Made by a program: the position numbers. 20,872 bases of DNA, from the IMG/VR virus record IMGVR_UViG_2526164630_000021; one strand, written 5' to 3'. Of this stretch, positions 13,301 through 16,300 are shown piece by piece; the first letter of the stretch is position 1; every line of letters starts with the position of its first letter. Source of the DNA: a virus (lineage: Duplodnaviria; Heunggongvirae; Uroviricota; Caudoviricetes).

Positions 13301-16300
13301 ACCGTCAGGGTTGTTGTTTTCCCTTTTGCCACCGTACCAGATGTCGGCGTCACCTTAATCGCAGTGACCGGCGTAATTTCGCTGCGTTCTTCCGCCACAG
13401 AAGGTTTACCCACGTTGGTCACTTTCACCGTACGGGTGATCACTTCCTTCGCCGTTACGGCCTTACCGATACTGCTGACCCAGCCACGGAACACATCCAC
13501 CGTGCCGTTCGGGAAACGGATTTTATAGGCCCGCACATCCCCGCTTTCAAACCAGCCTATAAGCCCTTTCTGACCTTCTTCTCCCGGTTTCCAGGCCAGC
13601 GTAAAACTGGTATCTCCTGCAGACTTCTGCCCCTGCCCGGTCGCAGTCCAGTCCGCGTCTTCATCATCCAGGTAGTTATCATCGTAGGGTTCTGCCGTCA
13701 TCTCGCCCGGCGTCAGATCCTTTACCTGTGCCAGTCGCTGCCAGTTATCGTCTGACAACGGGTTTGCATAGGCATCACCCTGACCGTTATAAACCCACAG
13801 GGTGGTACCGGCACCTTTTACCGGTGCCAGAGGATTTGGTGTTGGCATATCGTCCTCACATCTCGTATGTAATGGAATAAGTCAAATCAGCAGAACTCCA
13901 TAACGCCATATCGTCATCACGACGATACTCATAGCCCTGCGTAACCATCGTGGTAATCAGGCCTGACAGTGCCGGGATCGCACTCATCGCCGGATAAATC
14001 CGGCTTTCCATCCACGAATCCAGCTCTGAATCCGGCACCTGAGCAGGCAGGAAAACTTCAATATGCAGCTCCGCCTGCCAGGTATCGCTGTCCAGCTCTT
14101 CGCCCGTGTATTCAGCGCCGGTGAGATAAACAGCAATTGCCGGAAAATCCGCCTCATCAAAAACAGCGGGGCGACCATCAAACAGCGTCGCCCCGTGTTC
14201 ATGCTGCTCGAGTGCATCCAGCACTGCAGCACGGATATCAGTATGTTTCATCGCTTTATCACAATCCTTAGTTGTTGTTTCAACGCATAGCCCAGTTCTT
14301 TTGGCAGACGTTCTCGCCGGATACGGTTAACGTTCTCATCAAAAGCCTGCTTCAGTGGGGCCGCCATCGGAATTTTAACCACCTGAATGGGAAGACGATT
14401 ACGCTTTTTCCTTCCTTTATCGTCATTGCCCTTCGCATACCGGGCTTCTGGCAAACGTTGCATAACATGCCAGCGCCCATTATTTAATCGCTGGATGAAT
14501 GCCCGCTGATAACGATGCTGACCGGCTTTAAGTATGCTGTTCGGACGATGACCAAGCATCCTGATCCCCAGCTTAATAGCAGGGAGATCACCGCGGTTAA
14601 CGATAATTCTGGCATTCGGATTTCTGACCGTCGCCCGTTTCAGTCTGGACCGTTCCTTTACCAGTTTCCGGCTCACCCTGGTCTCCCGGGCAACCTGTGA
14701 TGAAGACTGATTAATCGCCGTTGTAGCCACGCGGTTAATAGCCATTGCTGAAGCCGACGGAATGGCGTTTTTACGAACCCGGCTCAGATTTTCAATCGCC
14801 TGATCAAGCCCTTTTATCGCCATAATTCACCCTGCGTTTATCGTCGCCGGTTAACTGCGGGTGGTTGCCCACGGTTCAGCCAGAGATAACAACTGCCCCC
14901 GTCATCCGGAGAAACACGATCCACCCAGAACGTCTCACCATTAATGGTCAACGTGTCACCACGCCGCACGGCACGAACCGTATCCGTCCGCACAAATAAT
15001 GACGGACTGCTTCCTTCAATACGGATCCCACTACTGGCAAAACCCAGCGACTCCGGATCGTCAAAAACCCCCTGAACTTCGCCGCCACGCTGTGCACCGG
15101 AGGTGAACTGCGCACTGATGCCCATCACTTCAACAATCGTACTGTCCACCCCGGCAAGGGCGGCATCAAAGGCATTCTGAAAATCACGCATAAACAGCCA
15201 TTCCACCATCAACGTGTGTTTTTGCATCTGAGGACATAATCAGAATCACCCGACCAACATCCGCAAGCTCAACGGATTCCCCCGTTTCACCATCAACGCC
15301 ACAGAGATGGAGGCAGGTCAGAACTCTGATGCGCGTTAACGCGCCGGATGTTTCCTCACGAACATCATGAGCCGCGTTTTCCCTCTCCCGGATATCCATA
15401 TTCATAACCTGTACATCATCGCCGGATGACTGCATTTCCTCTTCCCATTCTGCCACCCGCTGCGCTATCTCTGCGGCACTCCCGGATATATCCGGCTCAC
15501 GCCCCAGAATCAGGGCCAGTTCATCAAGCCGTTTCAGATTTTGCTCTTTCGTTGCCATATCATCCCCCTGTGAAAAAAGACACGGGGGCATTTCGCCCCC
15601 GCTCACGGATTATTTCACCTGTACCACCACAAACTCATCCGGGTCCGGCAACACCATCAGCGGCGCGGACTGCGTCATGGTAAATTCACGGGCGGGATCC
15701 CCTACCGTCAGCCAGTGTTTCGGATAACGGGAAGAGGCCACCACACCTTCGGACAACGCCTGCGCATCCTGAATGGCACCATAGCAACGAATGCCCTCTG
15801 CTGCCGTATTCCCCAGGACCAGCGAGCCCTCAGGCAGATAACGTTTTTCGGTACCGTCCTCTGCCACATAAGACGTTTTTGCCACCACAATGGCCAGATC
15901 GCCGTAATACCCTTTGAAGGACACCACCGCGCCCAGGTCTTTCACCGCTGTTTCGAGTTGCGAATTAGAGCCGCGACGGGTATCCAGTTTTTCGCGGAAC
16001 AATTTAAAGCCATTCAGCAGACGCCAGACAGTACCGTCCATAATGGCAATATTCACAAGACCGCTGGCCTGGTCGCAGTAGAGGTCAAGATCATGTGTAG
16101 GATCGAACGTGTCACGATCCTGTTTTGACCACTCCTTACCACTACCCTGAGTGATGTTATTCTTCGTCGACCTGCCAAAATCGACCTCAATTTTCTCGAA
16201 CTGGTCTCCTTCCATCGTGTATTTGCCATACAGCACGGCATTCACCGCCTGCATTTCTTCCACCTGGACAATGGCGTGCTCTTCCTGTTTGAGGTTATCA

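What the first reader, a model, noticed from the sequence alone, without database searches (positions are those of the whole stretch)
15559..15609. Terminator-like hairpin after the major capsid gene with an alternative pairing that would occlude the FI ribosome-binding site
Directly after the E stop the minus strand forms GGGGGC-GAAAU-GCCCCC, then GUGUC and UUUUUU. This resembles an intrinsic terminator with a slightly displaced U-run. A mutually exclusive pairing would sequester the GGGGG of the FI ribosome-binding site. Either structure could lower FI expression relative to E.
Basis: partly seen in the sequence, partly recalled or inferred. Interest (0 to 1): 0.35.

Follow-up and report, generated by a model that had tools for sequence, protein, structure and literature searches.

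The report
Conserved terminator-like hairpin after capsid gene
The short gap between the major capsid gene and the next gene (FI) of this phage-21-like prophage holds a real, evolutionarily conserved terminator-type RNA hairpin, an ordinary and already recognised kind of phage operon punctuation, while the proposed second fold that would hide the FI ribosome-binding site is negligible and not conserved.

Summary
The window is a lambda-like prophage whose head genes are 96.6% identical to phage 21, with the late operon on the minus strand.

- **Hairpin:** GC GGGGGC-GAAAU-GCCCCC GU folds at -17.3 kcal/mol. It is the best terminator-like site in the window and exceeds dinucleotide shuffles (z = -3.2).
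- **Conservation:** 49 of 51 distinct E-FI junctions from relatives (Escherichia, Salmonella, Providencia, Serratia, an Aeromonadaceae MAG, Methylorubrum) carry a hairpin in the same place. The sequences are often unrelated, most are followed by a U-rich run, and stem substitutions keep pairing.
- **Sister hairpin:** an equally conserved one sits between the decoration gene (shp/D) and E.
- **Alternative fold:** the RBS-occluding fold exists on paper (-13.5 kcal/mol). It holds about 0.1% of the ensemble, lies behind a ~10 kcal/mol barrier, loses pairs without compensation in variants, and is absent from the lambda and Gifsy-1 types.

Best reading: an intrinsic-terminator-type hairpin that Q-modified polymerase reads through. 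It stops unmodified polymerases and then protects the 3' side of capsid mRNA. This is a new member of a known kind, of low interest.

The parts
15610..16638 (-). Major capsid protein gene (phage 21 gene 7, lambda E homolog), 342 aa; stop UAA at 15612-15610
   Evidence: ORF list. 96.6% DNA identity to M81255 gene 7. PHROG major head protein, E = 1e-189.
15582..15602 (-). Terminator-type RNA hairpin: 5' arm 15602-15595 (GCGGGGGC), loop 15594-15590 (GAAAU), 3' arm 15589-15582 (GCCCCCGU). The core 6 G-C pairs are 15600-15595 with 15589-15584.
   Evidence: Energy -17.3 kcal/mol; pair probabilities 1.0 in the ensemble. 100% of cells paired in 16 variants, with one compensatory G-C to A-U change and three changes to G.U.
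15573..15578 (-). U6 run, 3 nt after the extended stem (spacer GUC)
   Evidence: U-rich tails are typical of relatives: 4.6 U in the 8 nt after the stem against 2.2 before it.
15564..15568 (-). Shine-Dalgarno GGGGG of FI, 5 nt before the AUG
   Evidence: Annotated as a ribosome-binding site in phage 21 record M81255. Duplex with the anti-SD is -9.4 kcal/mol.
15564..15588 (-). Alternative RBS-occluding hairpin (CCCCCGUG 15588-15581 with CAC 15572-15570 and GGGGG 15568-15564; A15569 bulged). A minor conformer.
   Evidence: -13.5 kcal/mol, but probability about 0.001. 87.5% of cells paired, with uncompensated breaks.
15184..15558 (-). FI homolog (phage 21 ORF1), 124 aa, DNA-packaging chaperone
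   Evidence: PHROG 92, E = 1.5e-43.
16667..16688 (-). Sister terminator-like hairpin between the decoration gene shp/D and E: UCAGGCCACC-GC-GGUGGCCUGA, then CUGAUUUCUG
   Evidence: Second-best site of the scan; sequence. A hairpin of -8 kcal/mol or better is present in 38 of 45 distinct relatives.
16696..17043 (-). Head decoration protein gene shp (lambda D homolog)
   Evidence: PHROG 49 head decoration.

Best explanation
The 51-nt E-FI spacer carries a conserved intrinsic-terminator-type hairpin. It is one of a pair that brackets the major capsid gene in lambda-like head operons.

Proposed mechanism (the hairpin and its conservation are shown; the steps below are inferred):
1. RNA polymerase that has not been modified by the late antiterminator Q, such as spurious or read-in transcription in the lysogen, meets a G+C-rich 8-bp hairpin plus U-run. 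It terminates there with modest efficiency.
2. Q-modified polymerase reads through during lytic growth, so FI and all downstream head-completion and tail genes are still transcribed.
3. The hairpin then folds in the late mRNA behind the polymerase. There it acts as a barrier to 3'-to-5' exonucleases once the U-rich single-stranded spacer has been cut, favouring persistence of the capsid-gene segment.

The FI ribosome-binding site is not controlled by a switch. The hairpin locks its own C-run away from the G-rich Shine-Dalgarno, which stays about half accessible.
For: Anatomy:
- 8-bp stem (7 G-C, 1 G.U), 5-nt loop, -17.3 kcal/mol, with 6 U in the 9 nt after the stem. It lies on the coding strand 7-9 nt after the stop.
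- z = -3.19 against shuffles.

Conservation of structure rather than sequence:
- 49 of 51 distinct junctions have a hairpin here, with at least nine unrelated stem sequences. Examples are phage 21 type, Gifsy-1 AAAGGCCUG/CAGGCCUUU, Providencia CGGCGGG/CCCGCCG, Trabulsiella 11 bp, Serratia, lambda GGCCC-UUCG-GGGCC, the Aeromonadaceae MAG CAUGCCCC/GGGGCAUG and Methylorubrum 10 bp.
- All four stem substitutions in the phage-21 type keep pairing. Three give G.U, which pairs only in the sense-strand RNA.
- In the lambda type the outer pairs covary: U-A to C-G three times, and only 1 of 500 shuffles reaches the covariation score.

Orientation: U-rich after the stem but not before it (4.6 against 2.2 of 8 nt).

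The same design occurs after shp/D. It is a textbook terminator in lambda, GCCGC-CUGU-GCGGC followed by U7.

Other canonical terminators lie inside this late operon at 8618-8601 and 6998-6979, so read-through by an antiterminated polymerase is required in any case.

Literature:
- Intra-late-operon terminators after the procapsid module are noted in P22-like phages with 'roles not known'. The suggested roles are partial termination or stopping non-antiterminated transcription (PMC8022706).
- Internal terminators combined with processive antitermination filter spurious transcription (PMC8955417).
- Q forms a nozzle that precludes terminator hairpins (10.1101/651190 and PMC9388147).
Against: - No transcript data were available, so neither termination nor stabilisation is shown.
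- By a d'Aubenton-Carafa-type score the window's element is borderline (-5.0; lambda -3.5), because GUC separates the stem from the U-run. Only 10 of 33 distinct relatives score above 0.
- Some relatives keep the hairpin but have no U-run (Trabulsiella, Buttiauxella, Methylorubrum). This argues that the hairpin, not termination, is the conserved part.
- The major tail gene V, also very highly expressed, has no such hairpin after it: the spacer to G is only 13 nt.
- From my own knowledge, Sampson et al. 1988 attributed late-protein ratios in lambda to translation initiation. The paper was not held, and only its title was seen. That leaves little room for a large mRNA-level effect.
Confidence: 0.55

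Rival explanations
1. RBS-occlusion switch. The 3' arm GCCCCCGUG leaves the terminator hairpin and pairs with CAC-A-GGGGG, hiding the FI Shine-Dalgarno and lowering FI translation. This might be triggered when a ribosome terminating at the E stop invades the 5' arm.
For: - The alternative helix is well formed (8 pairs, one bulge, -13.5 kcal/mol).
- It becomes the minimum-energy fold if the 5' arm is blocked or mutated, when P(SD paired) rises from 0.44 to 0.93.
- In the divergent variant L086 the arm GCUCC can still pair with the SD GGAGC.
Against: - Ensemble ratio 0.0009, pair probabilities 0.001-0.003, and a ~10 kcal/mol barrier from the hairpin, which is also made first.
- By standard ribosome-footprint geometry (my own knowledge), a ribosome with the stop in its A site covers about 9 nt past the stop. 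That reaches 15601 and does not enter the 6-bp core.
- SD substitutions in 5 of 16 variants break pairs with no compensation; 87.5% of cells pair, against 100% for the terminator hairpin.
- I saw no counterpart in the lambda-type or Gifsy-1-type junction sequences. Any C-rich arm will complement a G-rich SD by composition alone.
Confidence: 0.04
2. Working attenuator during lytic growth. Q-modified polymerase terminates here at a substantial rate, so transcripts step down after E, and FI and downstream genes receive less mRNA. The analogy is T7 T-phi after gene 10.
For: - Terminator-like anatomy and its position after the most abundant virion protein.
- Inefficient terminators are used to balance expression in T7 and Pseudomonas phages (PMC9163698).
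- Partial termination is one of the two options offered for phage L (PMC8022706).
Against: - The Q nozzle precludes terminator hairpin formation.
- A comparable or stronger terminator lies between D and E. From textbook knowledge, D and E are needed in about equal copy number.
- All essential downstream head-completion and tail genes depend on read-through.
- The U-run is displaced and the score is borderline.
- The title of Sampson et al. 1988.
Confidence: 0.15
3. Translation insulator. The hairpin acts at the RNA level only. It folds the G/C-rich spacer onto itself so that it cannot pair with neighbouring sequence, and it leaves a U-rich single-stranded platform (a binding surface for ribosomal protein S1) in front of the FI ribosome-binding site. 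FI initiation then becomes independent of E translation.
For: - Disrupting either arm raises predicted SD pairing from 0.44 to 0.80-0.93, and the compensatory double mutant restores 0.44.
- Hairpins without a U-run abut the SD directly in Trabulsiella and Buttiauxella.
- The same layout (hairpin, U-rich stretch, RBS) precedes E.
Against: - A spacer without G/C runs would need no insulating.
- The hairpin-plus-U design matches terminators more economically.
- SD accessibility in the wild type is only moderate (0.44-0.62 paired).
Confidence: 0.15
4. Chance inverted repeat or neutral relic with no function.
For: - The total number of terminator-like matches in the region is not above shuffles (13 against 8.5 +/- 3.2).
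- The 86-nt fold has z = -0.72.
Against: - Positional conservation across 49 of 51 junctions with unrelated stem sequences.
- Pairing-preserving substitutions.
- An invariant GGCCC-UUCG-GGGCC core in the lambda type while the flanks diverge.
Confidence: 0.05

Closest known systems
Intra-operon Rho-independent terminators of lambdoid late operons, read through by Q-type antiterminators (for example the predicted terminator at the end of the procapsid module of P22-like phage L; PMC8022706)
   Same: Hairpin plus U-rich tail on the coding strand, just after the coat/procapsid genes. It sits inside a single long late operon that is served by one promoter and a processive antiterminator. The function is acknowledged as unknown.
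   Different: - The head-gene family differs (lambda E-type rather than P22 gp5).
- The U-run is displaced by GUC and the score is borderline.
- Here the element is shown to be positionally conserved across many genera and paired with a second hairpin upstream of E.
Terminators placed after the major coat gene in other phages: T7 T-phi after gene 10, and the f1/M13 terminator after gene VIII (own knowledge; T7 is mentioned in PMC9163698)
   Same: A 3'-end-forming hairpin immediately downstream of the most abundantly needed structural gene.
   Different: Those terminators act on unmodified polymerase and visibly step transcript levels down. Here the polymerase is antiterminated, so a step-down is doubtful.
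Intercistronic mRNA-stabilising hairpins (malE-malF REP, the Rhodobacter puf operon; own knowledge)
   Same: A stable stem-loop at the 3' side of the cistron whose product is needed in excess. It would block 3' exonucleases after endonucleolytic cutting downstream.
   Different: It is not a REP sequence, it has a terminator-like U tail, and no decay data exist.
RBS-sequestering hairpins and translational coupling, as in RNA phages (MS2 and Q-beta; PMC2978339)
   Same: A C-rich strand could pair with a Shine-Dalgarno sequence.
   Different: The sequestering fold is about 0.1% of the ensemble, is not conserved, and has no evident trigger.

Membership tests
Intrinsic (Rho-independent) terminator | G+C-rich stem of about 5-14 bp with a loop of 3-8 nt | tested here: met
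   8 bp (7 G-C and 1 G.U), loop 5 nt, -17.3 kcal/mol.
Intrinsic (Rho-independent) terminator | U-tract immediately 3' of the stem | tested here: inconclusive
   There are 6 U in the 9 nt after the stem, but GUC intervenes. The T-weight is 1.91 and the d'Aubenton-Carafa-type score is -5.0 (threshold 0), computed with modern energy parameters that were not calibrated for that score. Variants L041 and L045 with GUUUUUUU score +11.6.
Intrinsic (Rho-independent) terminator | Intergenic position on the transcribed strand, downstream of a stop codon | tested here: met
   The stem starts 7-9 nt after the E stop UAA, on the minus strand like every late gene.
Intrinsic (Rho-independent) terminator | RNA 3' ends or transcript release at the U-tract, in vivo or in vitro | not testable with these tools
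   No transcript data were available. The lambda ribosome-profiling/RNA-seq paper (PMC3718152) and Sampson et al. 1988 are not held.
mRNA-stabilising intercistronic hairpin | Stable stem-loop 3' of the more highly expressed cistron, conserved as structure | tested here: met
mRNA-stabilising intercistronic hairpin | Longer half-life or higher abundance of the upstream segment, dependent on the hairpin | not testable with these tools
   Needs a rifampicin chase or Northern blots with hairpin mutants.
RBS-sequestering RNA switch | Mutually exclusive helix that covers the Shine-Dalgarno | tested here: met
   Helix 15588-15581 with 15572-15564, -13.5 kcal/mol.
RBS-sequestering RNA switch | The sequestering conformer is appreciably populated or has a plausible trigger | tested here: not met
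   Ensemble ratio 0.0009 and barrier about 10 kcal/mol. By footprint geometry a terminating ribosome reaches only to the base of the core stem.
RBS-sequestering RNA switch | Conservation or covariation of the sequestering helix | tested here: not met
   87.5% of cells paired, with 16 broken cells and uncompensated SD changes. I saw no counterpart in the lambda and Gifsy-1 junction sequences.
Any curated RNA family (Rfam 15) | Match at or above the gathering score | tested here: not met
   The best overlapping match is ylbH leader at 14.9 bits against a gathering score of 50, E = 4.4.

The most novel reading that the evidence does not exclude
The two conserved hairpins, one after the decoration gene and one after the major capsid gene, together with their U-rich tails, form an RNA processing and stability module. 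The module carves long-lived D and E message segments out of the very long late transcript. If so, mRNA decay as well as translation initiation would set capsid-protein stoichiometry in lambda-like phages. In the phage-21 type, the 3' arm could additionally act as a fail-safe anti-Shine-Dalgarno for FI whenever the hairpin is opened.
Probability: 0.2. Interest if true: 0.45.

Novelty: new member of a known kind. Interest (0 to 1): 0.2.

Why it matters
This junction occurs in 1560 of 5426 complete E. coli genomes and is annotated as a feature in neither record examined, phage 21 M81255 and lambda J02459. The role of terminators inside antiterminated phage late operons is openly described as unknown (PMC8022706). 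Terminator-type hairpins are positionally conserved on both sides of the major capsid gene across many genera. That gives a clean, mutable test case for three possibilities: such sites filter unmodified polymerases, shape mRNA decay, or do nothing. For annotation and for phage engineering it marks a spacer that should not be treated as free insertion space. It does not reveal a new mechanism.

Tried and rejected
- **Rfam scan of 15000-17200 at E up to 10:** only sub-threshold noise.
- **Fold of a wide 86-nt frame:** z = -0.72, uninformative because flanking coding sequence dilutes the signal. Replaced by the 45 nt after the stop.
- **Brute-force hairpin enumeration on shuffles:** timed out. 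Replaced by MFE on shuffles.
- **Automatic FI start finding:** first picked the in-frame AUG inside the hairpin loop. Corrected using the phage 21 annotation and Shine-Dalgarno scoring.
- **Extended basal helix:** UCC/GGG and GUGA/UCAC would half-cover the SD and could give positive coupling to E translation. It is present in the minimum-energy fold but broken by the U-to-G variants L079, L064, L081 and L043, so it is not conserved.
- **Read-through E-FI fusion:** E and FI share a frame, with only UAA between them. Rejected for two reasons. Spacer lengths of 50, 51 and 52 nt occur among variants. UAA followed by U is, from my own knowledge, the strongest E. coli stop context.
- **RNase III site:** stems of 6-11 bp are too short (own knowledge).
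- **Bidirectional terminator:** there is no A-run before the stem and no T-run after the stem on the plus strand.
- **Papers that would give lambda transcript levels across E-FI:** Liu et al. 2013, Sampson et al. 1988 and Casjens & Hendrix 2015 are not held.
- **Large protein searches and structure prediction:** not used, because the question is about RNA.
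Full report
**Context**

The window is a lambda-like prophage with its late operon on the minus strand. A 501-nt query across the finding is 96.6% identical to the phage 21 head operon (M81255) and to several sequenced phage-21-like phages.

In the phage 21 annotation the flanking genes are gene 7 (major capsid protein) and 'ORF1' with its ribosome-binding site. PHROG profiles confirm the following assignments:

| Window coordinates (minus strand) | Assignment |
|---|---|
| 16696-17043 | Head decoration protein (shp/D) |
| 15610-16638 | Major head protein (E) |
| 15184-15558 | DNA-packaging chaperone FI |
| 14838-15227 | Head closure protein FII |

The same 221-nt junction occurs in 1560 of 5426 complete E. 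coli genomes, mostly at 99% identity or more.

**Observation**

| Element | Coordinates |
|---|---|
| E stop UAA | 15612-15610 |
| GGGGGC (5' arm core) | 15600-15595 |
| Loop GAAAU | 15594-15590 |
| GCCCCC (3' arm core) | 15589-15584 |
| GUGUC | 15583-15579 |
| U6 | 15578-15573 |
| GGGGG (Shine-Dalgarno) | 15568-15564 |
| FI AUG | 15558-15556 |

- The stem extends to 8 pairs (15602-15595 with 15589-15582).
- The core hairpin is worth -13.9 kcal/mol, the extended one -17.3, and its pairs have probability 1.0 in the ensemble.
- It is the top terminator-like site of the consensus scan, although the total number of such sites is not enriched over shuffles.
- The 45 nt after the stop fold better than 496 of 500 dinucleotide shuffles (z = -3.19). 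A wide 86-nt frame hides this (z = -0.72).
- Rfam has nothing here.

**Comparative evidence**

I collected 142 loci encoding E homologs from viral and genome collections and extracted the sequence after the E stop. This gave 51 distinct 90-nt sequences. Forty-nine of them have a hairpin of -8 kcal/mol or better, starting 2-22 nt after the stop. The stems are often unrelated in sequence:

| Source | Hairpin |
|---|---|
| Phage 21 type | GGGGGC-GAAAU-GCCCCC |
| Shigella / E. coli / E. albertii subtype (L086) | GCGGGAGC-UAAAU-GCUCCCGU |
| Gifsy-1 | AAAGGCCUG-AUU-CAGGCCUUU |
| Providencia | CGGCGGG-GAAA-CCCGCCG |
| Trabulsiella | 11-bp stem |
| Serratia | AGGGGC-UACG-GCCCCU |
| Lambda and many Enterobacteriaceae prophages | GGCCC-UUCG-GGGCC |
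| Aeromonadaceae MAG | CAUGCCCC-UGAAU-GGGGCAUG |
| Methylorubrum | 10-bp stem |

Fifteen of 17 representative junctions fold better than their shuffles (mean z = -2.2). The two exceptions (L137, L140) lack a convincing hairpin.

Within the phage-21 type (16 variants), all four stem substitutions keep pairing. Three are C-to-U changes that give G.U, which pairs only in the sense-strand RNA. One is a double G-C to A-U change. 100% of cells are paired.

In the lambda type the five core pairs and the C(UUCG)G loop are invariant. The two outer pairs covary: U-A to C-G three times, and only 1 of 500 shuffles reaches the covariation score.

The tail is U-rich after the stem (4.6 of 8 nt) but not before it (2.2 of 8), so the element is oriented like a terminator. 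On a d'Aubenton-Carafa-type score the window's site is borderline (-5.0; lambda -3.5), and 10 of 33 distinct forms score above zero. A few forms have no U-run at all.

**A sister element**

The spacer between shp/D and E holds the second-best terminator-like site of the region (16688-16667).

- In lambda the corresponding site is a textbook terminator, GCCGC-CUGU-GCGGC followed by seven U. Gifsy-1 also has one.
- Across relatives, 38 of 45 distinct sequences upstream of E carry such a hairpin, including the alphaproteobacterial ones.
- Of the three spacers of 30 nt or more in the head-tail core of this window, two hold these hairpins.
- Two further canonical terminators lie on the coding strand inside the late operon, after tail gene L (8618-8601) and after an inserted antirepressor gene (6998-6979).

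Downstream essential genes therefore depend on antiterminated transcription in any case.

**The alternative fold**

The 3' arm plus GUG can pair with CAC-A-GGGGG (8 pairs, one bulge, -13.5 kcal/mol), which would cover the Shine-Dalgarno. Five lines of evidence argue against a regulatory role:

1. The ensemble containing it is 4.3 kcal/mol less favourable than the one containing the terminator hairpin (ratio 0.0009). Its pair probabilities are 0.001-0.003, and the best refolding path has a barrier of about 10 kcal/mol.
2. The terminator hairpin is transcribed first.
3. By standard footprint geometry, a ribosome sitting on the E stop covers about 9 nt beyond it. It reaches the base of the core stem but not into it. 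The alternative fold wins only if at least three core nucleotides are blocked.
4. In the 16 variants the Shine-Dalgarno drifts (GGAGG, AGAGG, GGGAG, GGAGA) with no compensating change in the C-run. 87.5% of cells pair, with 16 broken cells.
5. I saw no corresponding pairing in the lambda-type or Gifsy-1-type junction sequences.

A C-rich arm complementary to a G-rich Shine-Dalgarno is expected from composition alone. Folding of designed mutants points the other way: disrupting either arm raises Shine-Dalgarno pairing from 0.44 to 0.80-0.93, and the compensatory double mutant restores 0.44. If anything, the hairpin protects the FI ribosome-binding site.

**Mechanism**

What is shown is a stable, oriented, positionally conserved terminator-type hairpin after the major capsid gene, paired with one before it.

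What is inferred:
- Polymerases not modified by Q would terminate here with modest efficiency.
- Q-modified polymerase reads through. Q21 and Q-lambda form a nozzle on the RNA exit channel that precludes terminator hairpins (bioRxiv 10.1101/651190; PMC9388147).
- The hairpin then exists in the late mRNA. There it can block 3' exonucleases once the U-rich spacer has been cut, favouring the capsid-gene segment.

The literature treats such sites as known but unexplained. For P22-like phage L, a predicted terminator at the end of the procapsid module is noted. [quoted passage not shown] The logic of internal terminators plus processive antitermination as a filter for spurious transcription is laid out for conjugation operons (PMC8955417). 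Inefficient terminators as balancing devices are documented for T7 and Pseudomonas phages (PMC9163698).

Three points argue against a large step-down of transcripts after E:
- The Q mechanism itself.
- The comparable or stronger terminator between D and E, which from textbook knowledge are needed in equal copy number.
- The conclusion of Sampson et al. 1988, from my own knowledge, that translation initiation sets late-protein ratios. Only the title was verifiable here.

**Limits**

No transcript, decay or translation data could be consulted, and the key lambda expression papers are not held. The split between 'terminator for unmodified polymerase', 'mRNA 3' protector' and 'RBS insulator' therefore rests on inference. 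I give the combined terminator/protector reading 0.55, a working attenuator 0.15, an RBS insulator 0.15, chance 0.05 and the occlusion switch 0.04.

**Verdict**

The element is an unannotated but ordinary member of a known class, so interest is low.

Noticed in passing
window 16667-16688 (-), and L002 about 665-690, L003 about 660-685: A second terminator-like hairpin lies between the decoration gene shp/D and the capsid gene E. It is conserved in 38 of 45 distinct relatives and is a textbook terminator in lambda (GCCGC-CUGU-GCGGC followed by U7). The capsid gene is therefore bracketed by two such sites.
   Followed up: yes
window 6979-8618: A divergent pair of genes is inserted between tail genes L and K. 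They are an Ant-type antirepressor (7016-8020, minus strand) and an Arc-like regulator (8251-8610, plus strand). The insert has promoter-like sites (about 8182-8257), canonical terminators at 8618-8601 and 6998-6979 (minus strand) and a 14-bp hairpin at 7971-8002 (plus strand). It resembles the P22 immI region, which also sits inside a late operon.
   Followed up: partly
window 2593-5639 (-): The central tail fibre gene J is split into two overlapping ORFs (4101-5639 and 2593-4212). Both match the J profile in consecutive parts. This suggests a frameshift, so a defective prophage or a sequencing error.
   Followed up: no
window 15556-15612 (-): E and FI are in the same reading frame, with only the UAA stop between them. 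An AUG inside the hairpin (15591-15589) is also in frame, and PHROG 2353 ('major head protein', 481 positions) matches E at 1-314 and FI at 361-473, hinting at fused annotations elsewhere. Spacer lengths of 50, 51 and 52 nt among variants argue that the shared frame is accidental.
   Followed up: partly
L092-L107 and others from genome contigs: Many assemblies of unrelated organisms carry short contigs with lambda-type E genes. Examples are Chromatium, Kitasatospora, Paenibacillus, Bradyrhizobium, an Akkermansia MAG and Enterococcus. Fourteen loci share lambda's exact E-FI junction sequence, which most likely reflects lambda DNA contamination or spike-in.
   Followed up: no
window 17044-17071 (-): The only sigma-70-like promoter match in 12000-20872 (CTGACC-16-TACAAT, 9 of 12) lies in the 36-nt spacer just upstream of shp. 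It is probably chance, since fewer matches were found than expected from shuffles.
   Followed up: no
window 87-108 and 764-783 (-): Two canonical terminators (8 pairs followed by T5-6) follow the last two minus-strand ORFs at the low-coordinate end (135-734 and 801-1304). These are probably the end of the late operon or tail-fibre accessory genes.
   Followed up: no
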